Of a stretch of DNA of 59,248 nucleotides, positions 16,287-58,018 are shown in pieces. Under the pieces are notes generated by a model. That model saw nothing but the letters and a program-made list of their open reading frames with translations. It had not been told where the DNA came from and did not search any database. Position numbers and translations under genes: made by a program. Position 1 is the first letter of the stretch, and the number at the start of each line of letters is the position of its first letter. The stretch is from IMG/VR virus record IMGVR_UViG_3300029288_000091. One strand, 5' to 3'. Source of the DNA: an uncultured virus (IMG/VR IMGVR_UViG_3300029288_000091) (lineage: Duplodnaviria > Heunggongvirae > Uroviricota > Caudoviricetes).

Positions 16287-16290
16287 TTGT

Positions 16291-19510: not shown

Positions 19511-19811
19511 CTCTTTCCTCCTCTTTTGGTTGGTTTTTAATCTGTTCTAATAGCTTATATAGTTCTGATTCACATTCTAATTTAATATTTTCTTCAACAG
19601 ATTTATTAAGTATTTCACCTATTTGTATTAATTTTTCTGGGGTTATTACATTTATTAATTCTATGGATTTTAAAACTTTTCTGTATGAATACATAAAACC
19701 TAAAAGAATCTCTAAAAATGTTACTTTTTCAAGTTTTTCATTAAAATTTAAATCGACAAAGAAACTGATAAATATTTCTGCCAATTTTTCTACATTTATA
19801 TGATTAATCAT
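19494..19811 (-). CDS. hypothetical protein
   Basis: 105 aa ORF with GGAGG RBS. Confidence 0.55.
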   Translation of the reverse strand: MINHINVEKLAEIFISFFVDLNFNEKLEKVTFLEILLGFMYSYRKVLKSIELINVITPEKLIQIGEILNKSVEENIKLECESELYKLLEQIKNQPKEEERDGKKD

Positions 19812-24300: not shown

Positions 24301-24799
24301 TAGAAAGATCTTTGGAAGTTTTTGGCAACGATTTGTTTTTAACAGTAATATATGGAAAATTTATTTCTATAGTTCTAAAAATTTTCGCAATATTTTCATC
24401 AACAATTTCATTAATTTCTACTGGTATTTCTTTATATGGTAAAATTTCTCCATTAAGATATGACAAATTTCCCTTTGAGACTTTACCAACGGTTTTAAGG
24501 CGCGCTCTATTAACACCAATAACAATAATACGCTTCTTGATCCCTTCGTCATCAAGGGGAATTATACTTTTTATTTCTGCTTCCGTACATATACCATAAA
24601 AATCTGCTGCTGATGGCTCATCTACTCTTTCATCTTTTTGTATAGCAACAACAATGGTAGAGTTAGAAGCTTTGGCCGCACTAATAGCATCGATAGAAAT
24701 GGGTCGTCCAACATCAATAATACAAGGAAAACCTGGAAATGCGACTAATCGTTGATCTTTAAGTGGAAGTATTGGAAGTTTGCGACCTTTTTCTGCCAT
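21389..24799 (-). CDS. lon: ATP-dependent Lon protease containing an intein
   Basis: LON N domain, DHYGLEKPKERILEYLAV, Walker A GPPGVGK|T, MLDEIDK, PKDGPSAG (Ser) and IGGLVEK (Lys) dyad. Confidence 0.97.
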   Translation of the reverse strand: MAEKGRKLPILPLKDQRLVAFPGFPCIIDVGRPISIDAISAAKASNSTIVVAIQKDERVDEPSAADFYGICTEAEIKSIIPLDDEGIKKRIIVIGVNRARLKTVGKVSKGNLSYLNGEILPYKEIPVEINEIVDENIAKIFRTIEINFPYITVKNKSLPKTSKDLSILIDNIIGQIELDGKTKLNFLGEPDVKKRLEILIFVLGMLVKRTKESPPIISNIENEEGEFSRLRKLVNNSKMPEDVLKIANQELRRLKNMNSAMSEYAITTNYIEALSILPWDKKSEDKLDIDKARKSLDNDHYGLEKPKERILEYLAVRKLVPNRKGAILCFVGPPGVGKAQPLDAKVLTPGGWKTMGDINVGDIVSTPDGKNANVICIYPQGEKEIYSVVFSDGSKTECCKEHLWKVKNRDDRKEDKDGCVKSLEQINKNLYVERGLRKNYSIPMVGPNINFIEPEVLGLDPYLVGALLGDKTLGENKTSFTNSDAGLINIIEEKLNLVRCKLSLRGDKEIDYGISKINHRCVNNINKQNNKSSVANFIDEVELRGCLADKKFVPIQYKLTSSKNRLELLRGILDTNGSVNDEKHSIEYSSASIQLCKDVKFLVESLGGQAYYSSGKSFYTYKGEKLQEKDRHRLNITLPNGIIPFKMESKINLYNTTKNKARFLPRYIKKIEYVGKKEAKCILIDHPDHLYITDDFIVTHNTSLGKSIAKAMGREFIRLSLGGVHDEAEIRGHRKTYIGAMTGKIIQYLKKTGVNNPLYMLDEIDKLSKDFRGDPGSALLEVLDPEQNCAFVDNYLNVPFDLSNVFFITTANDIGPIPPALQDRMEIIEIPGYSPHDKLKIVQNYLIPKQKEANGLKEYDISISPQAITKVIEEYTGEAGVRNLERECGAILRKIAVTVAAGKEAPSIVRADSISKFLGPPKVFIEKAGEKPEVGLSTGLAWSQHGGSLLFVEASLCSGKGDIKLTGNLGKVLQESASTALTWIKSNVDKFGIDQNLFSQKDVHIHFPAGATPKDGPSAGIAISAAMLSLFTNKPVRNDVAMTGEITLRGRVLPIGGLVEKVLAAHRGGIKEVLYPTQNQHNIDEIPQDVRNEIKLTPVSNLIEAIDKLLLNIVVEEDSNDISVKKNRDTLINMAT
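22697..23785 (-). mobile_element. 363 aa intein with LAGLIDADG domain in Lon Walker A
   Basis: Begins AQPLDAKVLTP, ends FIVTHN followed by Thr; removal restores GPPGVGKTS. Confidence 0.95.
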
Positions 24800-28121: not shown

Positions 28122-29390
28122 TTACCTCCAATGTTTATCTTTGGCTGTTACTCCGTTAGATATAATACTAATTGGAACGCCGAATACCTCTTCGAAATAT
28201 TCTGGAAAGTTTTCTTTTTCGATTTCTTTATATTTCTTAATTGGTGATACAATCTTAAGTCTATCGTGAATATCATTACTAGAAACAAAACAAGTAAGAT
28301 CTTTTAGTTGGTTACCACCAACATAATAGTTTTCACAAACTTTAAATCTGCTATCCATCCTATCAAAATTTGTTAAGGCCACAGACTGAACAGCTGATTT
28401 TTCAACAGCATATTTTGTAAGTTGACAATCAAACCAACCATATCTAAACTCTTTTTGCCATTGATTATCAATATTGTGTTCATCTTTTGTCCAAGGAACG
28501 TCTTTAATTTCTGTTAGTAATGGCCCATATCCATGTCTATGAGAATATGGCCGCAATATACCAACAACCGCTTTCTCTTCAACATATTGTGAAGTAATAT
28601 TGCACAACATAGAAAGCGCATATTGTGTATTTACTTTACAATTAGTGATATATGGTCTAAAACCTATATCTTTATCTAGCAATATTCCCTAAGACCCCTC
28701 AAAGATTAAATTATTATTTTTAACATCTTTGCTTATAAAATCTATTGTATCTACAACATTATATCTATTATAAAACGATTTATATATAGACATAACTTTT
28801 TCAATATTAAGATTAAGCATTTCTTGAAATAGCTTAGCAAGTATGGCATCATTACCGATAAGATTTGCTACCTTATCTAATTTGCTAAACCTAATGCTTT
28901 TAAGTTTCTGTTCTAAAAGTTTTGTGTTTGGAATGTCTTTAACTTGGACCGATGTTCCATAATCCCTACTAATTGCCGCAGCGCCAACACCCATTCCACA
29001 AGTACTTTTGCCAAATACTAGCGAGGTTATTCTTCCCATTCCTTTATCATATGGACTAATTATATGACAGTTCTCATCGATATAAATCATATCGTTTATT
29101 TCTCTATTAACTTTGGAACGAAAAATATCTTCTTCATACATTAAGGCTGATGGCTCTATTAACATATGTTCGCCAAGTACGGTTTTTGTACCATTTACAA
29201 ACATACCTGAGCCAAGTTGTGCAAAAGTATGATGAAGACCTTCATTAGTAATAACATTATGAGCTGCTTGTGGCCCACCACTATATCTTACTATAGTGGC
29301 AGGTGCTAATTCTCTTGTTAAAAAATCTACTATTGTTCCCTTACCCTCATCACCAAAATGCAAACCAACTGTTACATAGATTTTGCCCAT
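28122..29390 (-). pseudogene. adenylosuccinate synthetase-like gene with one in-frame TAG
   Basis: GLHFGDEGKG, RYSGGPQAAHNV, TCGMGVG, FEGS*GILLD (TAG 28689-28691), RHGYGP, FRYGWFD. Confidence 0.88.
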
Positions 29391-33266: not shown

Positions 33267-34019
33267 TTATGGTTCTTGGGGTTTCCATTCGCCAACCTTG
33301 CCGTGATAGCTTTTCAGCGCTGGAACCTGTACAAGTTCCATTTCCGGGTACCTTAACGCAGTAAGTTTATTTCCAAATACACAACCAGTATCAATACCAG
33401 CTGTTTTATTTTCAAGTCTGGCTTCTAATCTTGGTTCGTGGCCATAAACTATAAGTGGAGAATTTGAATCACAAATCCTTTTATTAACCCATTCAATTCT
33501 ATTTGGAATTCCAAGATCCTTGTCCATGCCAGCACTTGGACCAAATAAACAAGTATCACGGCAGCGTTTTGAAAAGCCACTCTCTTTTAATAAATGATCC
33601 TTAAAACAAGCATGAACTACCACTAACTTTTCGTCATCTAGCTTTAGAAATAGAGGGAGAGAAGAAAAGAAATCAACAACTTCCTCTTTAGTTATCGTTG
33701 TAGAATTCTCAATTTCCCTTGCTGTGCCATCATCACCATGTGTAAGCATGACTGGATTTCCTTTTGACCAACGCGCAATTTTTGAGTCATGATTACCTAA
33801 AACAGACATAGCGTATCTTTTATTAATCATATCGCGTACTAAGAAAATTACAGCAAGTGAATTTGGACCTCTGCTGACTAAATCTCCAACAAAAACTGCT
33901 ATCCTTCCTGTCGGCGGCTCAAAAGATAAGCCGTCACGTAAATATCCCAGTTCTTCAAATAGTTGACATAACTCCGTATAACAGCCGTGGCAATCACTAA
34001 TGATGTCCCATCCAAGCAA
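33267..34019 (-). CDS. Pnkp/PrpE-type metallophosphatase
   Basis: DCHGC, FVGDLVSRGPNS, LGNHD, VVVHA, VYGH, IDTGCVFGNKLTALRYPE. Confidence 0.9.
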   Translation of the reverse strand: MLGWDIISDCHGCYTELCQLFEELGYLRDGLSFEPPTGRIAVFVGDLVSRGPNSLAVIFLVRDMINKRYAMSVLGNHDSKIARWSKGNPVMLTHGDDGTAREIENSTTITKEEVVDFFSSLPLFLKLDDEKLVVVHACFKDHLLKESGFSKRCRDTCLFGPSAGMDKDLGIPNRIEWVNKRICDSNSPLIVYGHEPRLEARLENKTAGIDTGCVFGNKLTALRYPEMELVQVPALKSYHGKVGEWKPQEP

Positions 34020-34071: not shown

Positions 34072-34997
34072 ATGAAAATAACAGATCTAGAATTACAGAA
34101 ACTTTGTAATAGATACAATGAGGGAGCAACCTATACGGTACTCAAAAATGAATTTAATCTAGATATGGCAACTATTAAATCTTATCTACAAAAATCTAAT
34201 ATAAATTTCCGCTCCCGTTCGATTTGTAGTCGTCAATATAAATTAAGAGAAGATTTTTTTGATGAAATTAACATACAAGAAAAAGCATACATGCTTGGTT
34301 TTCTATATGCTGATGGAAATAATGATACAAAAGGAAATCGTATAAGGATTAATTTAAGCAATAAAGATAAATATATTCTTGAGAAATTTGTGGAATTAAT
34401 ATATTAGAATCTCGCCCGCTTCGTCAAATCCCAGAACACATCGATTCAAAAGGGAGAATTAGACGCGAATTATGGGAGCTTACAATAACTAATAAACATA
34501 TGAGCAATGTTCTAGATAATTTTGGAATGGTCGCAAAGAAATCTCTAATATTAAAATTTCCAAGAAATTTAGCAAAAGAGATGTTGCCACATTTTATTCG
34601 TGGATACAATGATGGAGATGGTTGTATAGAAATTAGAGAAAAGAACCAAAGTCGCGTAGAAATACTAGGAACAAATGATTTCTGTAATTATATAAAATTT
34701 TATATAATGGAGAATTTCCATATTAAATCCTATATTAGAAAATATAAAAAAATATTTAAATTAAGTATCAATGGATCTTATACTATTAAATTTTTAGATT
34801 GGATATACAATAATTCAAATATCCACCTCGTGCGCAAATATAATAAATATGTAGAAGCAAAATCATTAAAACAGTGGCGGTACAAAAAAAGTTTAATAAA
34901 AAAATGTTCTATATGTGGAGACAAGCACTATGCTAAAGGACTATGTCACTACCATTATTACCGTAATAAAAGATTAAATATTAAATTCCCCATATAA
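34072..34997 (+). pseudogene. double-motif LAGLIDADG homing endonuclease, frameshifted near 34405
   Basis: KAYMLGFLYADG and HFIRGYNDGDG; C-terminal CSICG...GLCHYHY. Confidence 0.88.
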
Positions 34998-35315
34998 CTT
35001 CTACACATTCTGGACATCTACAGCACTTGGAAATCTTTTCCCCGGTGCGCCACACTTTTTACAAGTGTCGCATTCACTACTTAAATTTAATTTTACTTTT
35101 TTAATAACTCTAATCTCGTGTATATCCGGTCTTAAACCAAATACTCTACCTGCCGAGTAATCAAACACATAAACCCAAATCCTAGGGTCGTTTAAACAGT
35201 CTGGATATTTATCACAAGCCTCATCTGGCGAAAAAACTAAACCTTTACCACCATGATAAAACGACACTTCGTCGCTCTCATCGCATTCGAAATCACCTAT
35301 TTTGTAATGATACAT
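34981..35315 (-). CDS. hypothetical protein with C-terminal zinc ribbon (frameshift near end)
   Basis: CKKCGAPG then, in a shifted frame, EKISKCCRCPECVEVIWGI. Confidence 0.55.
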
Positions 35316-35696
35316 TTAAATTCCCCATATTATTTCACCACAATTGGGACATTTACAACACATACGAATTTGCTCACCAAGCGTTCCACATTTTTTACAT
35401 ACATCGACAGTGTTAATTTGGTTGCTATTTTCATCTACTAATTCTAATACTTGTATAGATTTAAGTTTATCAAAAGCGCCGTAAGCTGTACCATCCCAAT
35501 TGAGCCACAACACAAGTATTGTTTCTTTGAACCACGCAACTACGTGTTCCATATGTGGTAAAGTAGGTCTCATATCTTGTATAGTTAATATTTCTCCACT
35601 ATGAACATGAAATGGACTAGGCTTTTCACAATAATAATTTACTTCTCTAAGCCATTTTTCACTAATCCTAACTCTGTCTCCAATTTTTGGGACCAT
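35316..35696 (-). CDS. hypothetical protein with C-terminal zinc ribbon
   Basis: KIGDRVRI start; CKKCGTLGEQIRMCCKCPNCGEIIWGI. Confidence 0.65.
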   Translation of the reverse strand: MVPKIGDRVRISEKWLREVNYYCEKPSPFHVHSGEILTIQDMRPTLPHMEHVVAWFKETILVLWLNWDGTAYGAFDKLKSIQVLELVDENSNQINTVDVCKKCGTLGEQIRMCCKCPNCGEIIWGI

Positions 35697-37215: not shown

Positions 37216-38580
37216 TTATATGTAAACATCTTCTTTTAAATCTTCTAGGTATTGATCTACTATTTCTTCAGAAGTCATGTTTGGTGTTATATTTCCATTT
37301 AATAACCATCTATCAAACATTTGTTTAATCTTACCAACTTCCGGGCCAGCACTCAAACCAAGTTTTTCCATAATAACAGTTCCGATACCACTAGGAAGCT
37401 TTGGTCTAAGATCTTCTTCTTTAATTTCTGTAAGAGCTTGTCTCAATAAAGTTACATGAGCATTCTGTCTCTCTAATACCTCAGGCCGTTTAGAAGAACA
37501 ATCTGCTTCAAAGAGAGAAACCAAGTCCATGATATTACAGCCCCAAATTTCACACTCTCTAATTACTCTCCTCAATGCGCTTATACTTACTGGAGGAGTG
37601 TTTCTCCGCGTAACTGTATCACCAACGCGCTGATGTAAAGCAACCAAACCTTTAATAGATCTCCTCTGATCGTTGCTCATCTTAAATCTGCGAGCAATTC
37701 CTTCTACCATTTCTGCCCCAAGAATCTCGTGCTGAAAGAAATGAACTTCGTTATCCTTTTCAAATCGAGTTTGTGGCTTGGCCAAATCGTGCAACAACGC
37801 AGCCCAACGAACATCAACAGCCTTTGATGATTTTTCTACAACTGTAAGAGTATGTAACCAAACATTTTTGCTGATGAGTAAAGATCCTCTAATTTCCATA
37901 GACAAAGCAATCATCTCTGGAATCATGTAATATAATAACCTAGAGTGTCTCAAATATTCAATAGCTAAACTAACGTTTGCGCCAACTAAGAGTTTATTCA
38001 TCTCTTCTAACCAGCGCTCTCTGCTTATGTTCAAAATATTTTGGGCATAATTCTTTATAGCTTTCAAAGTTTTTTCTTCTATTGAAAAACCCAATTGAGA
38101 AATAAATCTAATAGCTCTAAGCATCCTAAGCGGATCTTCAGCAAATCGTTCATAAGGATTACCAGTAGCTTTGATTAATTTATTCTCAATATCCTTCTTG
38201 CCACCAAAAGGATCAATTAAAGTCCCATCGTTATCTTGGGCAATAGAATTAATTGTGAAGTCTCTTCTACTTAAATCTTTATTTATATCTGTAGAAAACG
38301 CTACATCTGGATGACGGCCCGCTGTTAAATCTCTGCGGTGAGTAGTAATTTCTATTTGTTTATCTCCAATAAATGTAGCAATAGTTCCAAACTTTTCACC
38401 GATAGGATAGTGTTTAAATCCGCCAGAAGTAAGAAGCTCTTGTGTCTTTTCTGGAAGAGCATCAGTAGTAAAGTCGTAATCTTTAGGTGGAAGCTGTAGT
38501 AAAATATTCCTAACGCTTCCTCCAACATGATAAAGCCTAAAACCATTTTGTTGGAATATTTCAAATAGCTTTGTAAACAT
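37216..38580 (-). CDS. cca: CCA-adding tRNA nucleotidyltransferase with HD domain
   Basis: VGGSVRN, KDYDFTT, DLSRRDFTINS, EDPLRMLRAIRF, SRER, ALLHDLAKP. Confidence 0.9.
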   Translation of the reverse strand: MFTKLFEIFQQNGFRLYHVGGSVRNILLQLPPKDYDFTTDALPEKTQELLTSGGFKHYPIGEKFGTIATFIGDKQIEITTHRRDLTAGRHPDVAFSTDINKDLSRRDFTINSIAQDNDGTLIDPFGGKKDIENKLIKATGNPYERFAEDPLRMLRAIRFISQLGFSIEEKTLKAIKNYAQNILNISRERWLEEMNKLLVGANVSLAIEYLRHSRLLYYMIPEMIALSMEIRGSLLISKNVWLHTLTVVEKSSKAVDVRWAALLHDLAKPQTRFEKDNEVHFFQHEILGAEMVEGIARRFKMSNDQRRSIKGLVALHQRVGDTVTRRNTPPVSISALRRVIRECEIWGCNIMDLVSLFEADCSSKRPEVLERQNAHVTLLRQALTEIKEEDLRPKLPSGIGTVIMEKLGLSAGPEVGKIKQMFDRWLLNGNITPNMTSEEIVDQYLEDLKEDVYI

Positions 38581-40462: not shown

Positions 40463-40679
40463 CTTCTAATTCTTCATCCAAGAGACTTTCTCCAGGTCCA
40501 CCATCCATCCAAAAAGGTATATTATCTTCGGCTTCATCTATATAGTCTTGAGTAGACATTTTATGTTGCCGCCGCTCTCTTTTATCACAATGAATCCCAG
40601 CTTTGCCGTGAGGTTGTTGTGTATCTCTACTAGCCTTCTTCAGAGCTTTTATTCTGTCGTACTTCCTTGTCTTTGCCAT
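40395..40679 (-). CDS. hypothetical protein, basic N-terminus and acidic C-terminus
   Basis: 94 aa ORF overlapping the Thg1 end. Confidence 0.55.
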   Translation of the reverse strand: MAKTRKYDRIKALKKASRDTQQPHGKAGIHCDKRERRQHKMSTQDYIDEAEDNIPFWMDGGPGESLLDEELEDEVVSSEDKENEHEKDTKPNRE

Positions 40680-41454
40680 CTTGTTCTCTCTCAGGATTTA
40701 AAACCTGCTGTAACCATTCTCTTCCGGCATCACTTTGAAAAATTGGGGCAGCCTCATATACCCAGCGTTTCCTTATAACAGGACCGTGTTCGGTTTCTAC
40801 CTCAATCTCTTTGCGAAATGTAACAATGCCATTTTTAAATTCTTCTTTATACGTTGACCAATTAATTCCAGTCTCTTGAAAAAGTATCTCTTGTCGCTCT
40901 TTGGAATTCAATTTATGTAATGCTTTTCTTGCTGTACCACGACCAATCTTTTTACCAATCTCATAATAGGCAGCACTACTAATTGAATTTTTTACACAGT
41001 CTTGCTGTCGCCAAATAAGATTATTTACAACTTCAGTCATATTTGGCATGGCACCAATTCTACAATCAAAGTAAGCTACAGGTGGTTTCTCCATAGTATC
41101 TAGCATACTTCTCATAAAAGATGCTGTAGCCATACTTGCAAGAATACTGTTCATCTTTAGGATGCGATTATCAAACCATGGAGTAGTCTCTTCCGATTGG
41201 TCGGTTCTTATAACAAGTGTAATTTCATCAGACTGGGTATATCCAATCATACAACCCTGAATATTACTAGCAATAGTAGCTACTGTTTCTGACATCCAGG
41301 TTGAAAACTTTTGGTCAAAAGGCTTATCAAGCTTTAGATTTTTAGTGAAGTTATGAAATCCTTTTCCATCTAGGCGAGCTATAATTGGGGCTCGTGGAAG
41401 AAGTTTATAATTGTAAACCTCTTCATAAGATTTCATACGAGTTGATAGGTTCAC
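40630..41454 (-). CDS. tRNA(His) guanylyltransferase Thg1-like protein
   Basis: RMKSYE, IARLDGKGFH, KPFD, GYTQSDEI, FDCR, WRQQDC, GINW. Confidence 0.93.
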   Translation of the reverse strand: MNLSTRMKSYEEVYNYKLLPRAPIIARLDGKGFHNFTKNLKLDKPFDQKFSTWMSETVATIASNIQGCMIGYTQSDEITLVIRTDQSEETTPWFDNRILKMNSILASMATASFMRSMLDTMEKPPVAYFDCRIGAMPNMTEVVNNLIWRQQDCVKNSISSAAYYEIGKKIGRGTARKALHKLNSKERQEILFQETGINWSTYKEEFKNGIVTFRKEIEVETEHGPVIRKRWVYEAAPIFQSDAGREWLQQVLNPEREQDGKDKEVRQNKSSEEG

Positions 41455-42246
41455 TTATTTTTTCCTTTCATTTGGATTAGTATGACTCCCCCAATTTTGA
41501 TGTACAGATCTATGATGTTCTCTACAAAGAGTAATGCCATTTTTAAATTCTGGATCTAACAACTCACTTTGCGTAATTAACCAATTATATTTTTCTTGCT
41601 CATCTATAAAAGACTTATCTTTACATAAGTCTTTTATTATTATAACAACTGGTTTAATATGATGAGCATCAATTTTATTTTTAGATCCACATACTCTACA
41701 TTTCCACTCATCTCTTACAAATACATTATAATACCATTTACAAATTTTATTAAGAAAATACTTGACTCTTCTTGTAAGAGATGCTTTGCCGCCCTTCCAA
41801 GCAGTTGCGTCATGGCCAACTTTACCAATACGAGATTTAGACATCTTGGCGCGAGTTTCAATAGAATGTTTTTTACCAAACATCCCATTTTGAGAGCCAC
41901 TCATATCAATATTTTTTCTTGCCTCTTTATATTTCTCGCTACATTTTATTGCTTCTGAGTGCTCTTTTCTTTTATTTTCTGTCCAAAACTCCTTACAGCA
42001 CTGAGGTTTTTTACCTGCTATTTTTTTAGATATATCCGAAAGTTTTTTCTTGTGCTCGTCCGTCAATTGCCTTTTAGGCAGAATATTTATTTTACATTTA
42101 AGACACAAATGCCTGCCATTTTTTCTTAAATTTACTTGAGCAGCAGCATATAGTATTTTAAATTCTTTGTTACAATTATCACACTTCACTAGAACTTTTT
42201 CTTTATTTCTATAAAAAAGTTCTTCTTGTCCGCTTAAATATGTCAT
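41455..42246 (-). CDS. HNH homing endonuclease with NUMOD3-like repeat
   Basis: MFGKKHSIETRAKMS, WKGG, VFVRDEWKCRVCG, DAHHIKP, NGITLCREHH. Confidence 0.88.
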   Translation of the reverse strand: MTYLSGQEELFYRNKEKVLVKCDNCNKEFKILYAAAQVNLRKNGRHLCLKCKINILPKRQLTDEHKKKLSDISKKIAGKKPQCCKEFWTENKRKEHSEAIKCSEKYKEARKNIDMSGSQNGMFGKKHSIETRAKMSKSRIGKVGHDATAWKGGKASLTRRVKYFLNKICKWYYNVFVRDEWKCRVCGSKNKIDAHHIKPVVIIIKDLCKDKSFIDEQEKYNWLITQSELLDPEFKNGITLCREHHRSVHQNWGSHTNPNERKK

Positions 42247-42291: not shown

Positions 42292-42330
42292 TTAAGACTT
42301 CATTCTTTCGCCGAGAGAACATCGCTCCAT
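42292..42330 (-). pseudogene. orphaned original 5' end of the Thg1-like gene
   Basis: GAGGAG RBS then MERCSLGERMKS*, matching the LxxRMKSY N-terminus of Thg1-like proteins. Confidence 0.75.
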
Positions 42331-49844: not shown

Positions 49845-50849
49845 TCATTCTCTTCCAGACAAAAGATATAAATTGTTAATTACTTTGAAGCTTAAACGAC
49901 CACAAAGTGTTGAACTATATGTTGGAACAAGAGGACGAATAACTATACCTTCTCGTTGCTGATCTGTTCCTTCATATATTCCTTCAGCTCGTTTAATCCA
50001 GGTAGATAATGGACTAATTTCATTACCTACTATTATGGACTCGATTGGAACGGTACGAAGTTTATTCGCTTCACAAAAATCTAACATATCATTAAGACCA
50101 AAATATCTGCCCTTTTTAATATCAAAAATATCAAACACAAATAAATCAAGTTCAAGAAGTCTCAGTCTATTTTGCTGAATACCAGGACCAGCAATTTCGC
50201 CCTGAATAGCTACCATTTTATCTTTTAATACTTCTTGTAGATTATATTTTCTAGCCATCTTCCAATAGATATTTGTTTCATTATCTCTCTTTTTCCAATT
50301 ACGAGAACATGCACAGAACTCATTATCGTAACAGAATGTGCTAGAAGTTCCATCTACTTTAATACTAACATAGTACGAGCCAGCAGATCTAAGTTCGTCT
50401 AAAAGTCTAGGTTTGCTTTGTAAACGAATCTCATCGGTCTTTGGGATGAAACATGGGAACGCACCGGACGATTGCCCCATTTTAGCACCACCATTATGAA
50501 GCTGTGGTTCATATTTTTTGACATTGAGTTGTTCAGTTATTTCTGTATCAAAATCAAACTCTTCGGAGCCTGGTAAAACAGAACAAGGTAGAGCAAGCCC
50601 TTGAAAAATGTGACCAGCAAAACGAATGGTACACACCCTGAATTTTCTGCTACGCATAAATTCGCTCCAACCGGGGCCATCAGGAAGTACACAGTCGCAT
50701 TCGAAAAATATACACTTATCGCCCTCTTTAAACTCACCCTTTTTGACACATAGATTCCAACCAAGGACTGTTGCTTTTAAAATTCGGTCGCGGCCCTCAA
50801 TAGATTCAAGTTTATCTATTCTTTGTATTGATACAAGTTTTCTTAGCAT
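49845..50849 (-). CDS. Rnl2/DRB0094-family RNA ligase
   Basis: RKLVSIQRI, FIPKTDEIRLQ, IKVDGTS, CSRN, IQGEIAGPGIQ, REGIVIR, SFKVIN. Confidence 0.93.
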   Translation of the reverse strand: MLRKLVSIQRIDKLESIEGRDRILKATVLGWNLCVKKGEFKEGDKCIFFECDCVLPDGPGWSEFMRSRKFRVCTIRFAGHIFQGLALPCSVLPGSEEFDFDTEITEQLNVKKYEPQLHNGGAKMGQSSGAFPCFIPKTDEIRLQSKPRLLDELRSAGSYYVSIKVDGTSSTFCYDNEFCACSRNWKKRDNETNIYWKMARKYNLQEVLKDKMVAIQGEIAGPGIQQNRLRLLELDLFVFDIFDIKKGRYFGLNDMLDFCEANKLRTVPIESIIVGNEISPLSTWIKRAEGIYEGTDQQREGIVIRPLVPTYSSTLCGRLSFKVINNLYLLSGRE

Positions 50850-51675: not shown

Positions 51676-52449
51676 ATGTATGTTGCTAAAAATTAAAGAG
51701 TTATATTTATCTGAAAAAAGTATAAATAAGATGTTTAAAGAACTAAATAAATCTACAGGTACTATATACAATATAATAAAAATCTTGGAATAATTCGAAG
51801 TAAATTTGTTGCTTGTAGAAAATATAATATAAGAGAAAATTTCTTTTGATCAAATAGATACCGAAATAAAAGCCTATGTACTTGGATTTTTATTTGCCGA
51901 TGGAAACAATATGAGAAATAGTATAACTATAAAATTAAATATAAAAGATATCGAAATGTTAAACAAAATAATTAAAGCAATATATCAAAATGAAAAATCA
52001 TTAAGATATGCTACTGAACGCAATAATTTAATTGTGTTATTTTGGAAATAGATAATAAACATATGAGCGAAAAACTTAAAGAATTAATAATGATTATCAA
52101 TAAAACATTAAAATCGACGTTCCCGAGTTAGCAGCAACTTATTAAAACATTTTATAAGGGGATATTTCGATGGAGATGGTTGTTTTATCGAAATGAAAAT
52201 AATAATAAAAGTTCTACAATTTCCATTATAGTAACTATTATGTTTAATAAAGACTTAAAAATATACAATTATAAAAGAATTAAAAATAACATCTAATATA
52301 TATACAAAAAGTGTATAAAAATAATAATAAAATTACCACAGTATTTCAATTTGGTGGCAATAGGCAGGCCATTAAATTATTTACAAAGATTCTACGATAT
52401 ATTTCGAAAAGAAATATAATAAATATCTAGAATTTAAAATTTATATTAA
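51676..52449 (+). pseudogene. LAGLIDADG homing endonuclease, multiply disrupted
   Basis: KAYVLGFLFADG and HFIRGYFDGDG fragments; GGAGG RBS. Confidence 0.8.
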
Positions 52450-52464
52450 TAAAGAAAACAATAT

Positions 52465-53450
52465 TTAAACACTGTGAAATAGATTTTCAATAGTATGAGT
52501 TTCTGAAGATTTTTTATTAAATTCCTGACACACGTCCAAACACTGAGACTTACATATCGGATCTTTCCAAGGTTTATGCTTAGAAACCCAATTAGCTCTT
52601 TGCCATCTAATATCCTTATCAACTTTGCCAATTGGATTTCCACCTTCTCTAAGATAGATAATACAAGGAAAATGATATGAGTTGCCAGAAACAACCATGT
52701 CATCCAACATTAACCAACATCTATCATTATTACTATCAGGAATACCTCTAACGTATCTACCAACTTTTATATTGCTTATTCTGTATTTAAGTATTGGATA
52801 CTTATTAATTATTTCTTCGGGTAGTTCTCTAAGTCGCAACAACGCTTTGTTATACTGAGCAGAAGGAATAACTCTAATGTCAGACGCCTAATGAATCAGC
52901 AAATAAAACACTTTCTAAACACTCATGTATATTTGTTTCTGTAAAAACCATACCAACAGAGACGTAAGTCATTTCACTTAGTGCCTTGATATTTTCAACC
53001 ACCTTATCCCAGCATTTTGGTCCACCAGACATAACGTTTCCAACAGTAGCACAACAAGCATCCAACGAAATAGAAAAGTCATTAACTCCAGTCTGGATTA
53101 ATTTGCTATATGTTCTAAATGAATTGGAACCGTTAGTTGAAATTGCTATTCTCTCAACACCATTATCTTTACACATTTCAACTAATTCTAATAGTCCATA
53201 GTACATGGTGGGCTCACCACCAGAGAATCTCACATTTTTTAAATCATTATCAATCCATATTCTAAGTATATTCTTAGCAGAATCTATATCCATATCTCCT
53301 TGATATTTGTTCTTTAAATTTCTACAATATGGACAACGGAAATTGCATCTTGAAGTTAAAATAAGCTCACATCTTTCTAATGAAGACATGACACTAGAAT
53401 TTAGCCCTTTTGTCGCTTAATGTATAAAAACCTATTTCTTCGAGTTTCAT
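52465..53450 (-). pseudogene. radical SAM protein with two frameshifts
   Basis: MKLEEIGFYTLSD start, CNFRCPYC, FSGGEP, STNG, SISLD; continues DIRVIPSAQ...CWLMLDD...FPCIIYLRE. Confidence 0.85.
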
Positions 53451-53523: not shown

Positions 53524-54318
53524 ATGAAAAAATATTTAATAGATGAAAACTTTTTTAATAATATAGATACCCAAGATAAGTCTTATTTTCTAGGAATTTT
53601 ATATGCCGACGGATGTCATAAAATCGAAAGAAACGAAATTGAATTACAACTTTCAGGACAAGATGTAGAATTATTAATAAAACTTAGAGATCTTATTTTT
53701 TATGAGCCAAAGCCATTTTATACTAAAAAATCAAAAACAATCAAAATATGCGGCATTGAAACTACTCGACAAGAATCAAACACTTTATCCATTTGTAATA
53801 AAAATATAAGTAAAAGTTTACTTACACATGGACTAATAAAAAATAAAAGCTCAACAATTGACTACCCAGATTTTATTTCTGATGAATTACAATCTCATTT
53901 TATTAGAGGATATTTTGACGGAGACGGTAGTGTATTTCTTACTAGGAAAAGACAAATATCTATAGCAATAATTGGTTCAGAGCTTTTTTGCTTAAAATTA
54001 CAAAGCATTTTAAAACAAAAAGAAATAAAATCTAGTATGTGCAAAGCTGGTAATTCTACAAAAGTAAAATCGCTAGAAATACATGGCAATAAATCTGGAA
54101 GAAAATTTTTATTATGGATATATTCAAATGCTAGTTTATACTTACAAAGGAAGTTTTTGAAGGTTGGTGAAATTTTAGATACAATACCAAAAGAGAAACC
54201 AACCAATTGCTCCATATGTAGTAATAAAAATTTTAGAGACAACTATTGTAAACAACATTATTATGAATTTATTGGAAGAGAATTACGACATAAAAGATAT
54301 ATTGAAAAAGAGAAATAA
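53524..54318 (+). CDS. double-motif LAGLIDADG homing endonuclease
   Basis: KSYFLGILYADG and HFIRGYFDGDG; C-terminal CSICS...YCKQHY. Confidence 0.9.
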   Translation: MKKYLIDENFFNNIDTQDKSYFLGILYADGCHKIERNEIELQLSGQDVELLIKLRDLIFYEPKPFYTKKSKTIKICGIETTRQESNTLSICNKNISKSLLTHGLIKNKSSTIDYPDFISDELQSHFIRGYFDGDGSVFLTRKRQISIAIIGSELFCLKLQSILKQKEIKSSMCKAGNSTKVKSLEIHGNKSGRKFLLWIYSNASLYLQRKFLKVGEILDTIPKEKPTNCSICSNKNFRDNYCKQHYYEFIGRELRHKRYIEKEK

Positions 54319-54319
54319 T

Positions 54320-55234
54320 TTACTTATCCTTTAAAAACATCTTGGCAAGTTCAACATGACAACTTACAATTATATTTTCTATTTTATCTTTAATGTCTTC
54401 TATATCAATCCACTTAGCTTCAACTATATCGTCATTTGGTCTAGGTGAGCCAAATATATATTTGGCAGAATATAAAATAGTTTTAATTTTATCTATTTCA
54501 TCTTTATACCGCCAATCATTTATAACAGTACTGCCAATATATTTGATATCATTTATTTCAATCCCAAGCTCTTCATGTATTTCTCTTTTTGCATCCATCT
54601 CATATGATTGAGATTTTGGATCTGCAAAGCCGCCAACAAACCTAAACTTGGTTTCATTTTCTTTACGACATAGTAATAACTTTGTACTATTTTTATTATA
54701 TATGGCTACATCAACAGTTGGATAACAAGTTGGAAATTGATTATTAACTGCCCAAATAACACCACGTCTAAAATTAGTATCATTAACTACCTTTAATATA
54801 AGTTCTTTATTAATATAAGATTCAGATATAAAAGTAGACGGTACTAATTCCTGTTTTTGGAATCTACCAATATAATTAGTAAGAAAAGAATCTTTTTCAC
54901 CATATAGAAGCACTGATTGATTTGGTCCAAGTAGGTCTAGAATTTTTTCATCAACATTCTTAGACCATATACTATCATCACCAACATCCTTTATATAAGA
55001 TATAATGAGGTTTGGAAATAAAGCATGAATCATCAATCTGCGAGTTTCAAAATCGAGAGGATTACTTTTGGTGGTAGGTACTGGTGTAATACCTTTAACT
55101 CCTAATAACATAATTACTTTTATATGTCTTTTTACAACAGTACTTATTAAATCAATATGCGCCTCATGTAATTGATCTATTTGGAATCTACCTATAATTA
55201 CTCCAACATCTACACTACTAGTCTTTATTTCCAT
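54320..55234 (-). CDS. bifunctional NMN adenylyltransferase / Nudix hydrolase (NadM-Nudix)
   Basis: IIGRFQ...LHEAH, SNPLDFETR, PTVDVA, GGF...AKREIHEELG Nudix box, PNDDI. Confidence 0.88.
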   Translation of the reverse strand: MEIKTSSVDVGVIIGRFQIDQLHEAHIDLISTVVKRHIKVIMLLGVKGITPVPTTKSNPLDFETRRLMIHALFPNLIISYIKDVGDDSIWSKNVDEKILDLLGPNQSVLLYGEKDSFLTNYIGRFQKQELVPSTFISESYINKELILKVVNDTNFRRGVIWAVNNQFPTCYPTVDVAIYNKNSTKLLLCRKENETKFRFVGGFADPKSQSYEMDAKREIHEELGIEINDIKYIGSTVINDWRYKDEIDKIKTILYSAKYIFGSPRPNDDIVEAKWIDIEDIKDKIENIIVSCHVELAKMFLKDK

Positions 55235-55898
55235 TAATCAACCTTTGCTTTACTATTGGTTTAAACATCCAATGTTCGTCTGGATCCTTTGGATGGTCTT
55301 TGCGAACCCATTTAGCAGTCGAGATATAAAAATCTATGATGTCTCTAGAAACTCTTACAACCACACCTTCTCTTTTATCTTCACCATATTCAGACTGTTG
55401 TGTTGCTAACTCAACAGTTAATTTCTCTAGCTCTTCTTCACTGTTTACCACGCCTTGAAATAACAACTTTACAACAACCAAACCAAGATTTTTAGAATAC
55501 TCGTTCAATAAATCCCAAGAGTAGAAAACATTCTCATTATCATCTCGCACCCCAAATACAAGAAAATAATCAGGAAGACGAGAATACTCAATAGAATGGA
55601 CACAAAAAACCCACTCACCAAAAATAGAAATGCCAGCGTCGATGTTGCTACGAAGTTCAGCGTGCTTAGCCTTAGCCGCATCAAAAGATTTGTGTGTGGC
55701 TTTTGTTGCATGTGTTCTTGCATATACTTCTTCCTGTGTAAAACACAAATTCGAACCGTCGACTTTTTCGCTCACGACTATCTCTTTACCGAGTAGGTGT
55801 TCCACATTGTTCAATCGCCTATCGTCTTTAGTTCCGCCGGGCGACCACGGAAAATGTGGAATTCGCGGGAACTTTTTTGAATTCATTATTTTTTCCAT
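55218..55898 (-). CDS. minimal RNA ligase family protein
   Basis: KFPRIPHFPWSPG, EKVDGSN, FGEW, FLVF, REGVVVR, AKWVR. Confidence 0.88.
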   Translation of the reverse strand: MEKIMNSKKFPRIPHFPWSPGGTKDDRRLNNVEHLLGKEIVVSEKVDGSNLCFTQEEVYARTHATKATHKSFDAAKAKHAELRSNIDAGISIFGEWVFCVHSIEYSRLPDYFLVFGVRDDNENVFYSWDLLNEYSKNLGLVVVKLLFQGVVNSEEELEKLTVELATQQSEYGEDKREGVVVRVSRDIIDFYISTAKWVRKDHPKDPDEHWMFKPIVKQRLINGNKD

Positions 55899-55910
55899 TA
55901 TAGAGGTTTT

Positions 55911-56648
55911 ATGTTTAAAGATATATTAACAAAAGAATTGTTAGATGATGTTTATACTATGCAAAAAAAGTCAATAGCGGCAATCGCTAGAGATTTTGGA
56001 ACGACTACCACTACTGTATGGAGATATATTAAATTTTATAAAATACCATTGAATGATAATCCTTTTAAACCCAAAGATATTACCGGAAATAAATTTGGGC
56101 AATTGGTTGCCATCAAGGCTGCGCCGAAAGATAAACACAATAAAAGTCGTTGGTTATGTAAATGTGATTGTGGAAAAACCATTATTGTAAATTATTCATC
56201 TTTAGTAAAAAATCTTACAAAATCATGTGGATGTAATAAACTTGAAAAGGGTAGGGCGAAAGGATATAAAGATATATCATTTTCTTGGTGGCGTAGAACG
56301 ATCAAAAGTGCGATTACGCGCGGAATTAATTTTGATTTAACTATGGAAGATGTTTGGCACAAATATGAAGAACAAGGTGGAAAATGTATAATGACTAATC
56401 TAGCTGTAACGTTTAGTCCAAACTATAACAAAATAAAATTACAAACGGCCTCTCTAGATAGAATTGACAGCAATTTAGGGTATATTAAAGGAAATATACA
56501 AATAGTTCACAAAGTTATAAATCATATGAAAGGATTTTTAACAAGTGAAGAATTTATTGGTTTCTGTAATTTGGTTGCAAAAACCCATGAAATTAGTAAT
56601 GAAAATATTTTAAACAAAATTACTTCGCGGCAGATCCTAAAAAAGTAG
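55911..56648 (+). CDS. HNH-like homing endonuclease with HTH and CKCDCG domain
   Basis: GNKFGQL...WLCKCDCG...TKSCGC, QGGKCIMT, ASLDRIDSNLGYIKGNIQIVHKVINHMK. Confidence 0.85.
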   Translation: MFKDILTKELLDDVYTMQKKSIAAIARDFGTTTTTVWRYIKFYKIPLNDNPFKPKDITGNKFGQLVAIKAAPKDKHNKSRWLCKCDCGKTIIVNYSSLVKNLTKSCGCNKLEKGRAKGYKDISFSWWRRTIKSAITRGINFDLTMEDVWHKYEEQGGKCIMTNLAVTFSPNYNKIKLQTASLDRIDSNLGYIKGNIQIVHKVINHMKGFLTSEEFIGFCNLVAKTHEISNENILNKITSRQILKK

Positions 56649-56700
56649 TGCCACCGGGAGACCAAGGAAGATGCGGAATCCTTGGAAATTTTTTAGACAT
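56620..56700 (-). pseudogene. orphaned original 5' end of the RNA ligase gene
   Basis: AAGGAG RBS then MSKKFPRIPHLPWSPGGT, duplicating the N-terminus of 55218-55898. Confidence 0.9.
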
Positions 56701-57088
56701 AATCTACTCCTTAAATTTCATATCATCGAGCCACTTCTTAATTATTCTTATTACTTGCTTTTTAGTCTTTGCTGCGCCATACTTTCTATTTTCGCTCTTT
56801 GGATCTGGATGAAGTTCTCTCAAGATAAAACCTCCGTCGGCTAAATCAATTCTAAAACTCTTCATTGGTAGTTTCCTTATTTACCAAATCTTACCACAAT
56901 CGTCATAATATGTAGATGACCCTCTGGGATCATTATCACAATGCGTATTCTTATGTGGACAATCAAGGTATAAATGCTACAAATCGATTTTTATATGATC
57001 AATTTGTCTAGTAAGTTCTTTAATCTTATAGGTTATTTCTTTACAAAAACTTGTCCGTCATTGTTAGCATATCTACCATTTTATTTTT

Positions 57089-57562
57089 CTATATTGTAAT
57101 CTTCTTATCCACTTTTGGTGTTAGTAGAGGCTTTATAAACTTCCAAGTACCACTAATATCATCTATTATGATTTCTGATTGTTTACTATCACAATCTATA
57201 AAATTTATAATGCGAGCTTTTGTTTCAAATCTTAAAGGGCTACTTTTAAATAGTCCTACTGCGATTAATACAAAATCAACTTTACAAGTATCACTTACTT
57301 TATAACTCTTAGATTTAAGCACGATAGAGATTGTCTTATTAGACCTTGTAATATCTCCAACAAATGGAATATAAGCAGCTTTACCAGCAACAGGAACAAT
57401 CACAACAGCTCTCAAAGCATTGCTATTAGACTCTTGAAATACAACACCTATCCAATTATTATTATTGGTAGTATAAATGTTCCAAAATCCATCAATTTTA
57501 TTTGGCGATACTAATAATACAAAAGTTAGAAAAAATAATTTAACCATATTACTTCCTTTCAA
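57089..57562 (-). CDS. putative secreted hypothetical protein
   Basis: Signal-peptide-like N-terminus, IDGFW and ISGTW motifs. Confidence 0.55.
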   Translation of the reverse strand: MKGSNMVKLFFLTFVLLVSPNKIDGFWNIYTTNNNNWIGVVFQESNSNALRAVVIVPVAGKAAYIPFVGDITRSNKTISIVLKSKSYKVSDTCKVDFVLIAVGLFKSSPLRFETKARIINFIDCDSKQSEIIIDDISGTWKFIKPLLTPKVDKKITI

Positions 57563-58018
57563 AAATCTAATTTATTAATTGTTTTTTAATTCCTATAATT
57601 TTGATTTCATTGATACATCTATTTGCTATGTTGTTAAAGAACCCTCATATATCTCATTAACTTTATAAATCATATCTACAGATGGCCAATATTTTCCACC
57701 TGACTTTTCTTTGCCATAATCCATATAAATTGGTTTTCCATTTATCGTTCTGCTACCCGTTTCGAATTTCTACACAAAATACAAACCTAAACTTTTATTT
57801 TCCCATAGCAAATAGAATAAATTAATTTGCTTTTTATTTGAATAGTAACTTACTTTTATTTTATACACATAGAATAAATTTCGGTGTGTATTTTTGAACA
57901 ACAATTTGTACACATAAAACCCTCTTCTGTTCTTCTAGCAATTATTTTAAATTTACCATACAAAAACAATTTTTTTGTTGATTTTCTTCCCATTTACAAT
58001 TTTAAAACCTCCATCATT

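What the first reader, a model, noticed from the sequence alone, without database searches (positions are those of the whole stretch)
55218..56700. Antisense endonuclease inserted in an RNA ligase gene carries a recoded duplicate of the gene's 5' end
Seen: SKKFPRIPH(L/F)PWSPGGT is encoded twice, at 56647-56697 behind the good RBS (then truncated) and at 55830-55880 fused to the rest of the ligase, flanking a plus-strand endonuclease. Of 17 aligned codons, 10 differ synonymously and 1 non-synonymously, so this is not a fresh target-site duplication. Inference: an intron-free, intein-free way to invade conserved coding sequence, in which the cassette repairs the gene it breaks and is immune to its own nuclease. 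Recurs at Thg1 and probably at the phosphoesterase.
Basis: partly seen in the sequence, partly recalled or inferred. Interest (0 to 1): 0.82.

Follow-up and report, generated by a model that had tools for sequence, protein, structure and literature searches.

The report
Homing-endonuclease scar at RNA ligase start
A selfish nuclease gene has landed a few codons inside a huge phage's RNA ligase gene, leaving the gene's old start as a stub and bringing a diverged new start, a pattern already known from fungal mitochondria but not found described for phages.

Summary
On the minus strand, a 26-codon stub (56620-56700) sits behind the native RBS. Next comes an antisense HNH homing endonuclease gene (HEG, 55911-56648), then a complete RNA ligase (55218-55898). 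Seventeen codons occur twice: 6 identical, 10 synonymous, 1 non-synonymous.

It is not an assembly artefact. An independent run has zero-mismatch contigs across both junctions.

The stub matches the family-typical N-terminus. The functional copy is atypical in residue, start offset and codon use.

The pattern recurs at Thg1 in this window, with a 12-codon stub (42292-42330). No stub was found at either phosphoesterase.

It also recurs elsewhere. An unrelated phage (L045-L048) has the same layout at its ligase with a different nuclease family. Two further HEG loci show it at other genes (L166, 5' end; L232, 3' end).

Best reading: a free-standing HEG cut the conserved 5' motif. Repair copied in the HEG together with the donor's cleavage-resistant gene end. 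The resident start was stranded.

This is the phage, 5'-end counterpart of fungal mitochondrial mobile endonuclease ORF gene hybrids, combined with T4-type intronless homing. The "recoding" is most simply natural allelic divergence, not design.

New variant of a known kind; moderate interest.

The parts
56704..56865 (-). Native upstream 53-aa ORF. Its last codons carry the RBS AAGGAG (56707-56712) that serves the stub.
   Evidence: no Pfam or PHROG family
56620..56700 (-). Stub of the resident ligase gene: ATG plus 17 native codons (56647-56697), then 8 out-of-frame codons antisense to the HEG's 3' end, then a stop.
   Evidence: The stub carries the family-majority residue L (105 of 117 homologues) and the commonest start offset (81 of 117).
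55911..56648 (+). Free-standing HNH homing endonuclease gene (245 aa; N-terminal HTH), antisense to the phage genes. Its stop codon TAG (56646-56648) overlaps the last 2 nt of the duplicated segment.
   Evidence: phrog_374 8.2e-26; HTH PF13542 3.8e-5, below the curated cut-off. The C-terminus is complete to within 1-2 residues of homologues P0122 and P0123.
55899..55910 (.). 12-nt spacer between the divergent start codons. It holds AGAGG (55902-55906, plus strand), the likely RBS of the HEG.
   Evidence: read
55218..55898 (-). Complete RNA ligase ORF (226 aa from ATG 55898; 222 aa from ATG 55886). The duplicated codons are 55830-55880. It keeps all 41 family-invariant residues. The first 50 codons have GC3 0.48.
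   Evidence: PF09414 2.2e-27; alignment A1; GC3 gradient
42292..42330 (-). Second case: stub of the resident Thg1 gene (MERCSLGERMKS, then stop) behind RBS GAGGAG.
   Evidence: It shares 9 of 12 residues with the N-terminus of P0243. The motif L[GSA].RMK occurs only here and at the Thg1 start; 0.09 hits expected per shuffled window.
41455..42246 (-). Second case: same-strand HNH homing endonuclease gene (263 aa; NUMOD3 plus HNH_2). Its stop abuts the Thg1 start codon.
   Evidence: PF07460 8.2e-7, PF13391 1.3e-5
40630..41454 (-). Second case: complete Thg1-like gene with a GTG start and a shortened, atypical N-terminus (NLSTRMKSYEE).
   Evidence: PF04446 8.9e-34; N-termini of homologues

Best explanation
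[quoted passage not shown] The HNH endonuclease recognises the most conserved nucleotide stretch of the ligase gene, the N-terminal KFPRIPHLPWSPGGT-DD motif, and cuts HEG-free alleles there. The break was repaired from a donor genome in which the HEG sits just upstream of its own, cleavage-resistant ligase allele. Homology was used only on the ligase side. The other side was joined illegitimately at or near the break, at the 3' end of the HEG. The result is: resident start (RBS, ATG and 17 codons) stranded as a stub; then the HEG; then the donor's 5' end fused to the rest of the ligase. The two copies differ mostly at synonymous sites because they are two old natural alleles of a strongly constrained peptide. 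Those differences plausibly also protect the new allele from the nuclease and from repeat-mediated deletion. Shown: the anatomy, recurrence, selection pattern, stub typicality and atypical codon use. Inferred: the cut site, immunity, the donor and the repair route.
For: Anatomy and counts.

Not a chimera: runs X1 and X2 hold 100% of 238 sampled words, though both are flagged as possible sources. In X3, from another study, zero-mismatch contigs cover 55647-56191 and 56166-57319 and so span both junctions.

The motif begins at residue 2-5 and is the most conserved block of the family.

The stub is the native copy. It sits directly behind the upstream gene's stop with a strong RBS. It has L, like 105 of 117 homologues, where the functional copy has F, like 12 of 117. 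It has the commonest start offset, shared by 81 of 117. The nearest relatives P0002 and P0003 start MSKKFPRIPHL.

Divergence predates the junction: pS 0.87, pN 0.026; P(at most 1 non-synonymous change among 12) = 2e-6.

The incoming end is compositionally foreign. GC3 is 0.48 in ligase codons 1-50, in the top 0.6% of 335 fifty-codon blocks from 33 genes (mean 0.22). It falls to 0.24-0.30 towards the 3' end.

The ligase stop overlaps the start of the next gene. This fits a native 3' end and a crossover inside the gene.

Recurrence: a Thg1 stub in this window. L045-L048 show stub, antisense phrog_3339 nuclease and full ligase. Orthologous HEG-plus-ligase pairs in L030, L042 and L044 have wholly unrelated flanks and no stub. 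Of 78 distinct nearest-upstream ORFs next to ligase genes, 11 are HEG-like, from several nuclease families. L166 shows a 5'-end duplication and L232 a 3'-end duplication around HEGs of the window's family.

Precedent for the repair route: one-sided homing with illegitimate, microhomology junctions in T4 (PMC2988022, section 5 passage). SegB-driven duplication with a junction at the 3' end of segB (PMC13096335, passages).
Against: No HEG-free allele of this phage was recovered at nucleotide level. Runs X3-X6 showed none. The closest ligase loci reachable were at most 54% identical. So the donor, the recipient and the conversion tract are inferred.

At protein level the ligase is uniformly about 75% identical to P0002 along its length, with no clear mosaic breakpoint.

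The HEG itself has ordinary GC3 (0.23). It therefore does not share the GC-rich signature of the ligase 5' end it supposedly arrived with.

In both ligase cases the junction lies within 0-3 codons of the HEG's natural stop. That is tighter than random illegitimate joining predicts.

The nearest HEG relative (L162, 57% identical) is not next to a ligase.

No cleavage data exist.
Confidence: 0.7

Rival explanations
1. One reading: a discrete, selected mobile cassette made of the HEG plus a short, deliberately recoded copy of the target's 5' end. It inserts exactly at its own cleavage site. Recoding has been selected for self-immunity and to prevent repeat-mediated loss.
For: The junction is flush with the HEG's 3' end in two independent ligase cases. 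The functional copy uses G/C-ending codons unusual for this genome. It departs from family-typical residues around the junction: KDDRR against the consensus SDDKR, and F for L. The functional Thg1 start likewise departs from the consensus SLGDRMK. L166 shows a tidy 79-nt copy of upstream sequence, RBS and 16 codons placed after the HEG.
Against: In the L046 lineage the whole ligase gene travels with the HEG. Three loci carry the pair with no stub. Synonymous divergence is at saturation but not beyond it: 5 of 15 comparable codons are identical. My own rough hand estimate of the number expected, from assumed AT-rich codon frequencies and from no call, is about 6. Elevated GC3 extends over 50-75 codons, much longer than a recognition site.
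Confidence: 0.18
2. In-situ origin: the HEG's own break triggered a local duplication within one genome, as in SegB-driven segmental amplification. The copies then diverged in place.
For: [quoted passage not shown] The repeats in L166 are 95% identical, which fits a recent local duplication.
Against: A non-functional stub would accumulate non-synonymous and synonymous changes alike. Here 11 of 12 changes are synonymous (P = 2e-6). Synonymous sites are saturated, yet the stub keeps its ATG, its frame and all 7 invariant residues.
Confidence: 0.07
3. Artefact or RNA-level repair: the duplication is an assembly chimera of two strains, or the insert is removed as an intron so that stub and body are joined.
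For: The samples are metagenomes with several related phages, and depth in X3 is low at about 5-7x. Joining the stub to codon K20 of the body would give a perfect ligase behind the good RBS (reading).
Against: Independently built contigs of a different study span both junctions with no mismatch. Two further runs hold every sampled word. No Rfam family, including group I and II introns, reached threshold in 54800-57200; the only match at E up to 1 was E 0.12 to an unrelated viral element. The downstream ORF is complete on its own.
Confidence: 0.03

Closest known systems
Mobile endonuclease ORFs (mORFs) that create gene hybrids in fungal mitochondria: Allomyces macrogynus atp6; Glomus sp. atp6, atp9, cox2, nad3 (PMC3630166, passages read). 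C-terminal partial duplications of cob and atp6 flanked by HEGs in Endoconidiophora (PMC6279837, passages read).
   Same: An endonuclease ORF sits inside a conserved protein gene without intron or intein. It brings a diverged, foreign copy of the displaced gene end, which stays in frame with the gene. The native end remains beside it as a duplicated remnant, and that native end is the one resembling close relatives.
   Different: There the 3' end is replaced, and the endonuclease ORF is on the same strand and often in phase with the gene. Here the 5' end, with start codon and RBS, is replaced. One HEG is antisense. The hosts are huge phages and the targets are tRNA-repair genes.
Intronless homing by free-standing HEGs of T-even phages, such as SegF, SegB, SegG and MobE (PMC2988022, passages read; PMC2790892 and PMC2330249, search listing and abstracts only).
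   Same: A free-standing HEG lies next to the gene it targets in HEG-less genomes. Flanking sequence is co-converted. The HEG's own genome is protected by sequence differences at the target.
   Different: In the classical cases the HEG is intergenic and both flanks recombine homologously, so no duplicated gene end is left.
[quoted passage not shown] Known to me only through the review PMC2988022, section 5; the paper itself could not be read.
   Same: Homology on one side of the break only; the other junction forms at microhomology. This is the repair route proposed here.
   Different: It is a laboratory construct with an intron. Whether it leaves duplicated exon ends like these I could not check.
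HEG-split genes (Aeh1 nrdA/mobE, T4 gene 60/mobA, phage 25 gene 43; PMC2988022 passages) and 'fractured genes' with split inteins (PMC2677866, passages read).
   Same: A free-standing HEG lies inside a coding region without an intron.
   Different: There the gene is cut into two polypeptides that reassemble or trans-splice, and nothing is duplicated. Here one complete ORF is restored and the other piece is a dead stub.
SegB-driven segmental amplification in phage T6 (PMC13096335, abstract and passages read).
   Same: A HEG break generates duplication. The junction lies between the target's 5' end and the 3' end of the HEG, trimming the HEG's C-terminus, as in L046.
   Different: Those are tandem identical repeats selected for gene dosage, not a diverged replacement end.

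Membership tests
Free-standing HNH homing endonuclease | HNH-type nuclease domain | tested here: met
   phrog_374 'HNH endonuclease' 8.2e-26 and other endonuclease PHROGs. The conserved C-x-C-D-C block and the SLDRIDS...GN.Q.VH..IN..K block are invariant or nearly so in 10 homologues. No Pfam HNH model hit. No solved relative by sequence.
Free-standing HNH homing endonuclease | Not embedded in an intron or intein | tested here: met
   No Rfam family reached threshold in 54800-57200. No intein or Hint domain in the flanking ORFs.
Free-standing HNH homing endonuclease | Presence/absence polymorphism at the same site among related genomes | tested here: inconclusive
   No HEG-free allele was seen in runs X3-X6. 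No close relative exists in the viral or metagenome collections. Relatives P0002 and P0003 have stub-like N-termini, but their DNA context could not be fetched.
Free-standing HNH homing endonuclease | Site-specific cleavage of the HEG-less allele and resistance of its own allele | not testable with these tools
   Needs protein expression and a cleavage assay.
mORF-type gene-end replacement (gene hybrid) | Duplicated gene end on both sides of an endonuclease ORF, with one copy in frame with the gene | tested here: met
   ligase; Thg1
mORF-type gene-end replacement (gene hybrid) | The stranded copy is the native one, closer to relatives than the in-frame copy | tested here: inconclusive
   At peptide level the stub is closer to 105 of 117 homologues, by a single residue each, and has the typical start offset. 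The Thg1 stub matches P0243 at 9 of 12 residues. The nucleotide-level test was not possible.
mORF-type gene-end replacement (gene hybrid) | The replaced end is the 3' (C-terminal) end, with the ORF co-oriented | tested here: not met
   Here the 5' end is replaced, and the ligase HEG is antisense. So it works like these elements but is a variant, not the described form. L232 does show the 3' form.
RNA ligase, PF09414 family | Nucleotidyltransferase domain with the KxDG lysine motif | tested here: met
   PF09414 2.2e-27 over profile positions 1-171. EKVDGSN is present, with all 41 invariant columns of a 20-sequence alignment. No NCBIfam or PDB sequence match.
Transposon target-site duplication | Short identical direct repeats made on insertion; a transposase | tested here: not met
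   The copies are 51 nt long and differ at 12 of 51 nt. No transposase or terminal inverted repeats were found.

The most novel reading that the evidence does not exclude
Gene-end replacement is a regular, selected way for free-standing homing endonucleases to spread in phages. The HEG plus a resistant copy of its target's end, or of the whole target gene, forms a self-sufficient module. That module can invade a conserved coding sequence in genomes that share no flanking homology. The stubs it leaves would mark HEG cleavage sites in silico across metagenomes. tRNA-repair genes of huge phages (RNA ligase, Thg1) are preferred landing sites.
Probability: 0.35. Interest if true: 0.65.

Novelty: new variant of a known kind. 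Interest (0 to 1): 0.5.

Why it matters
It shows that phage homing endonucleases can enter the most conserved part of a protein gene without an intron or intein and still leave a working gene. They do so by bringing a replacement gene end. This mechanism is documented for the 3' ends of fungal mitochondrial genes. I did not find it described for phages or for 5' ends in six full-text searches.

Practical consequences:
- The stubs give a sequence-only way to locate HEG insertion sites, and probably cut sites.
- They explain small 'orphan' ORFs behind strong ribosome-binding sites.
- They flag xenologous replacement of gene ends, which can mislead phylogenies and pangenome gene calls.
- They identify the ligase N-terminal motif as a target shared by several unrelated nuclease families.

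Tried and rejected
- No DNA match to 50,697 phage records. Protein-level relatives there are at most 43% identical and come from huge uncultured phages.
- No whole genome is held for the window. The contig record is not searchable by handle. So the rest of the 243.8-kb contig was not scanned.
- No RNA holder was listed for the stretch, so expression could not be examined.
- Runs X4-X6 hold only short identical fragments or unrelated look-alikes, and no contig skips the HEG. One X5 joint (54406 to 57579) has only 21 nt on its shorter side, below the tool's own reliability limit.
- The promoter and terminator scan was no better than shuffles.
- Protein-level mosaic test of the ligase against P0002-P0004: no breakpoint.
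- The duplication 34984-35058 versus 35316-35378, first taken for a second HEG-linked case, is a pair of tandem zinc-ribbon paralogues, one with a 1-nt frameshift.
- The 19-nt exact repeat at Thg1 (40825/41533) is not a gene-end duplication.
- Motif and Smith-Waterman scans found no 5' stub for the metallophosphoesterases 33267-34019 and 4031-4585.
- Of 80 distant Thg1 loci from viral contigs, none had a stub. L273 has two full tandem paralogues.
- The Thg1-side HEG has no close relative in viral contigs.
- The nearest relative of the ligase-side HEG (L162) is not beside a ligase and shows no flank duplication.
- The earlier-findings tool was not open.
- Parker et al. 1999 could not be read.
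- No structure or complex prediction was run; none would bear on the question.
Full report
**1. What is in the sequence**

Genes in this window run almost entirely on the minus strand. Reading that strand:
- A 53-aa ORF (56865-56704) ends with AAGGAG-TAG.
- Six bases later an ATG (56700-56698) opens a 26-codon ORF, MSKKFPRIPHLPWSPGGT-TFLGSAAK-stop, ending at 56620.
- On the opposite strand lies a 245-aa ORF (55911-56648). Its stop codon overlaps the last two bases of the codon for T18 of the short ORF.
- Twelve bases beyond that ORF's ATG, a 226-aa minus-strand ORF begins (55898-55218): MEKIMNSKKFPRIPHFPWSPGGTKDDRRL...

There are 6 identical codons, 10 synonymous and 1 non-synonymous (L/F), with 12 of 51 bases different. 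Among all six-frame fragments of the window this pair scores E 5.9e-14. A DNA repeat finder does not see it.

**2. What the genes are**

- The long minus-strand ORF is an RNA ligase of family PF09414 (2.2e-27, whole profile). It has the EKVDGSN lysine motif and all 41 invariant columns of a 20-sequence alignment.
- The plus-strand ORF matches HNH endonuclease PHROGs (phrog_374, 8.2e-26) and has an N-terminal helix-turn-helix. Its C-terminus is complete to within one or two residues of its closest homologues.
- The window belongs to a 243.8-kb viral contig with 32% G+C. The nearest named relatives of the ligase are uncultured phages of 0.5-0.7 Mb, at 43% identity or less.
- The window is rich in tRNA and RNA repair genes: a second ligase of DRB0094 type, a Thg1-like enzyme, a CCA-adding enzyme, and phosphoesterases. 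It also holds many homing endonuclease genes.

**3. Not an artefact**

- Two runs hold all 238 sampled 31-mers of 54900-57100, but both may be the source sample.
- A third run from another study has separately assembled contigs with no mismatch at 55647-56191 and 56166-57319. Each spans one junction.
- In 54800-57200 no RNA family reached threshold, including group I and II introns. The only match up to E 1 was E 0.12 to an unrelated viral element.

**4. Which copy is native**

The duplicated peptide is the most conserved block of the whole ligase family and starts at residue 2-5.

Evidence that the stub is the resident copy:
- It sits where a resident gene start should be, right behind the upstream gene's stop and a strong RBS.
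- At the single differing residue it has L, like 105 of 117 homologues. The functional copy has F, like 12 of 117.
- 81 of 117 homologues start M+motif as the stub does.
- The two nearest relatives (75% and 73% identical) begin MSKKFPRIPHL.

The functional copy has an added residue or residues (MNS / MEKIMNS) and no good RBS. It also departs from the family consensus just after the junction: KDDRR for SDDKR.

**5. What the divergence says**

By Nei-Gojobori counting, pS is 0.87 and pN is 0.026. If changes fell at random, one or fewer non-synonymous among 12 would have P = 2e-6.

A dead stub cannot have been held by selection. So nearly all the divergence arose while both copies were working gene starts, that is, in two different genomes before they were joined.

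The number of identical codons among those free to vary is 5 of 15. My rough hand estimate of the number expected for two saturated alleles in an AT-rich genome is about 6. That estimate is mine and comes from no call. On it, there is no excess that would demand deliberate recoding.

The functional copy is compositionally odd for this phage. GC3 is 0.48 over ligase codons 1-50, the top 0.6% of 335 fifty-codon blocks from 33 genes (mean 0.22, sd 0.07). It falls to 0.24-0.30 at the 3' end. That fits a conversion tract entering from the 5' side.

Two points count against a simple story. The HEG itself has ordinary GC3 of 0.23. Protein identity to relatives shows no breakpoint.

**6. Recurrence in the window**

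My BLAST-type scans found no other HEG-flanking peptide duplication. They were too blunt for very short stubs.

Reading the Thg1 region directly shows this order on the minus strand:
- the upstream gene's stop;
- GAGGAG;
- ATG at 42330 and the 12 codons MERCSLGERMKS, then a stop at 42292;
- a same-strand HNH endonuclease gene (42246-41455; NUMOD3 plus HNH_2);
- immediately after its stop, the GTG start of a complete Thg1 (41454-40630) beginning NLSTRMKSYEE.

The Thg1 family consensus start is M-x-K-x-SLGDRMK-x-YE. Relative P0243 (80% identical) starts MNKCSLGDRMKS, matching the stub at 9 of 12 residues. The motif L[GSA].RMK occurs exactly twice in the six-frame translation of the window, at these two places, against 0.09 expected from 200 shuffles.

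For the two metallophosphoesterases (33267-34019, with an antisense decayed LAGLIDADG gene upstream; 4031-4585, with a same-strand HNH gene upstream) no stub was found by alignment or motif search.

**7. Recurrence elsewhere**

Ligase loci. Of 160 ligase loci fetched (80 viral, 80 metagenomic, the window's own contig included), 5 loci in 2 lineages had the N-terminal motif twice, 129 had it once and 26 had none.

The second lineage is L045-L048, one phage seen in four samples. It shows:
- MEQTKYNRTYHLPWSPGSTNDD and then junk;
- an antisense 317-aa nuclease of a different family (phrog_3339 'homing endonuclease' 4.8e-13; DUF7487; faint Vsr/DUF559-like C-terminus);
- then the full ligase, MSKYPRTYHLPFSPGTTNDDRIS....

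The copies differ at 15 of 57 bases. The break falls three codons further downstream in the motif than in the window. This HEG has lost about its last three codons and its stop, and it reads ten codons into the stub.

Orthologues of this HEG (66-69% identical) paired with orthologous ligases (64-70%) occur in L030/L056, L042 and L044. They have no stub. No other flanking gene is shared at BLASTP 1e-5. So HEG and ligase move together as a two-gene unit between unrelated genomic contexts.

More broadly, I took 78 distinct nearest-upstream ORFs. These were at least 120 aa, ended within 350 nt of the motif, and came from 117 loci with enough upstream sequence; identical proteins were collapsed and the window's own locus was left out. 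Eleven hit HEG-type PHROGs at E 1e-5 or better:
- antisense small HNH in 4;
- same-strand HNH in 2;
- phrog_3339 in 4;
- LAGLIDADG in 1.

The 5' end of this ligase gene is therefore a landing site for several unrelated nuclease families.

HEG loci. I scanned 80 viral loci holding relatives of the window's HEG for same-strand peptide matches between the two flanks. The scan covered loci longer than 3 kb, assumed the HEG started at 2501, and used E 1e-4 or better. Besides the window it gave two gene-end duplications.
- L166: a 79-nt, 95% direct repeat (2209-2287 and 3011-3089). It comprises 30 nt of upstream sequence, the RBS and the first 16 codons of a 541-aa gene, and it brackets a same-strand HEG.
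- L232: the last 21 residues of a 235-aa gene (VFNAMVDLYFLRHPRIAKQAG) recur in diverged form (IFNKMVALYFATHPKIAKAAG) in a 33-aa ORF just after the HEG. This is a 3'-end version.
- The other hits were tandem HEG paralogues or weak.

**8. How it most likely works**

Inferred steps:
- The nuclease cuts the conserved 5' motif of HEG-less alleles.
- The break is repaired from a co-infecting genome that carries the HEG immediately upstream of a diverged, uncut allele.
- The ligase-side end finds homology and copies leftward through the donor's 5' end and the HEG.
- The other end has no homology beyond the HEG, so it is joined illegitimately.
- The resident start up to about the break is left as a stub.

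This explains four observations: the native stub; the foreign in-frame end; the loci with HEG and gene but no stub (ordinary two-sided homing, or later loss of the stub); and the 3' mirror image in L232.

One-sided homing with microhomology junctions is described for T4 (PMC2988022, section 5 passage; the original paper was not readable). A HEG-triggered duplication whose junction lies between the target's 5' end and the HEG's 3' end, truncating the HEG, was shown for SegB in T6 (PMC13096335, passages).

The sequence differences of the incoming end would, as in T-even intronless homing, protect it from the nuclease. They would also reduce deletion between the repeats. This is plausible and untested.

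The tight fit of both ligase junctions to the HEG's stop codon is not predicted by random joining.

**9. What is known**

The same logic is in print for fungal mitochondria: an endonuclease ORF, a foreign replacement gene end, and the native end left as a duplicate. Mobile endonuclease ORFs carry a foreign atp6 C-terminus in Allomyces macrogynus, and foreign atp6, atp9, cox2 and nad3 C-termini in Glomus. There the native ends match close relatives and the inserted ends do not (PMC3630166, passages). Partial C-terminal duplications of cob and atp6 are flanked by HEGs in Endoconidiophora (PMC6279837, passages).

For phages, the literature I could search describes intergenic HEGs with co-conversion, HEG-split genes and split-intein 'fractured genes'. 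None of six full-text searches turned up a duplicated gene end around a phage HEG. Subscription journals are mostly outside that library, so absence from print is not proven.

**10. Verdict**

- It overreaches on 'recoded'.
- It is not new in kind.
- The new elements are the 5'-end form, an antisense HEG, and the phage tRNA-repair setting.
- Cleavage specificity, immunity, donor identity and expression remain untested.

Noticed in passing
window 18266-18616 (-): A 171-nt tandem duplication lies inside a 116-aa ORF with a weak prokaryotic-ubiquitin (Prok_Ub) match. It sits next to ThiF-, E2- and JAB-like genes (14284-16974), which together suggest a phage ubiquitin-like conjugation set.
   Followed up: no
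window 28122-29390 (-) and 19804-20501 (-): Two genes are in two pieces with no HEG between the pieces. Adenylosuccinate synthetase is split into profile positions 1-216 and 221-412. DUF7227 is split into profile positions 3-73 and 78-221, with the ORFs overlapping by 4 nt.
   Followed up: no
window 34984-35696 (-): Tandem paralogues with a C-terminal zinc ribbon (CKKCG...CCKCPNCGEIIWGI). The second copy (35001-35315) has a 1-nt frameshift, so its ribbon (34984-35058) lies in another frame.
   Followed up: partly
window 34072-34997 (+), 51833-52465 (+), 53524-54318 (+): Three antisense LAGLIDADG homing endonuclease genes of one family, each just upstream of a minus-strand gene. One is intact, one is split in two ORFs and one is decayed into fragments.
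   Followed up: partly
window 40825-40843 and 41533-41551: A 19-nt exact direct repeat lies between the HNH motif region of the Thg1-side HEG and the C-terminal domain of Thg1. Both copies encode EFKNGI. It is unexplained.
   Followed up: partly
window 828-2294, 11244-11540, 21389-24799, 37216-38580, 49845-50849 (all -): Unusual cargo for a phage: a PARP-like protein with WGR and regulatory domains, ribosomal protein S21, a 1136-aa Lon protease, a CCA-adding/poly(A) polymerase-type enzyme, and a second RNA ligase of DRB0094 type.
   Followed up: no
L166 2209-3089: The stub ORF (MKILPNRRYHKTPRPLRSILLTA) ends overlapping the HEG's ATG, and a TAGGAG lies just before it. The HEG therefore appears to be translated by coupling to the captured start of its target gene. 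The left repeat also carries a near-copy of the HEG's last 10 codons, which the one-sided homing model does not readily explain.
   Followed up: partly
loci L085, L087, L092, L094, L096, L112: In metagenomic (probably bacterial) loci the ligase's upstream neighbour is a divergently oriented protein of about 375 aa with a polynucleotide-kinase-like domain, pointing to an RNA-repair pair.
   Followed up: no
window 54406 / 57579 in run X5: One contig joins these two places, skipping 3172 nt that include the NMNAT/Nudix gene, the ligase, the HEG and the stub. Only 21 nt lie on its shorter side, so it is not reliable.
   Followed up: no
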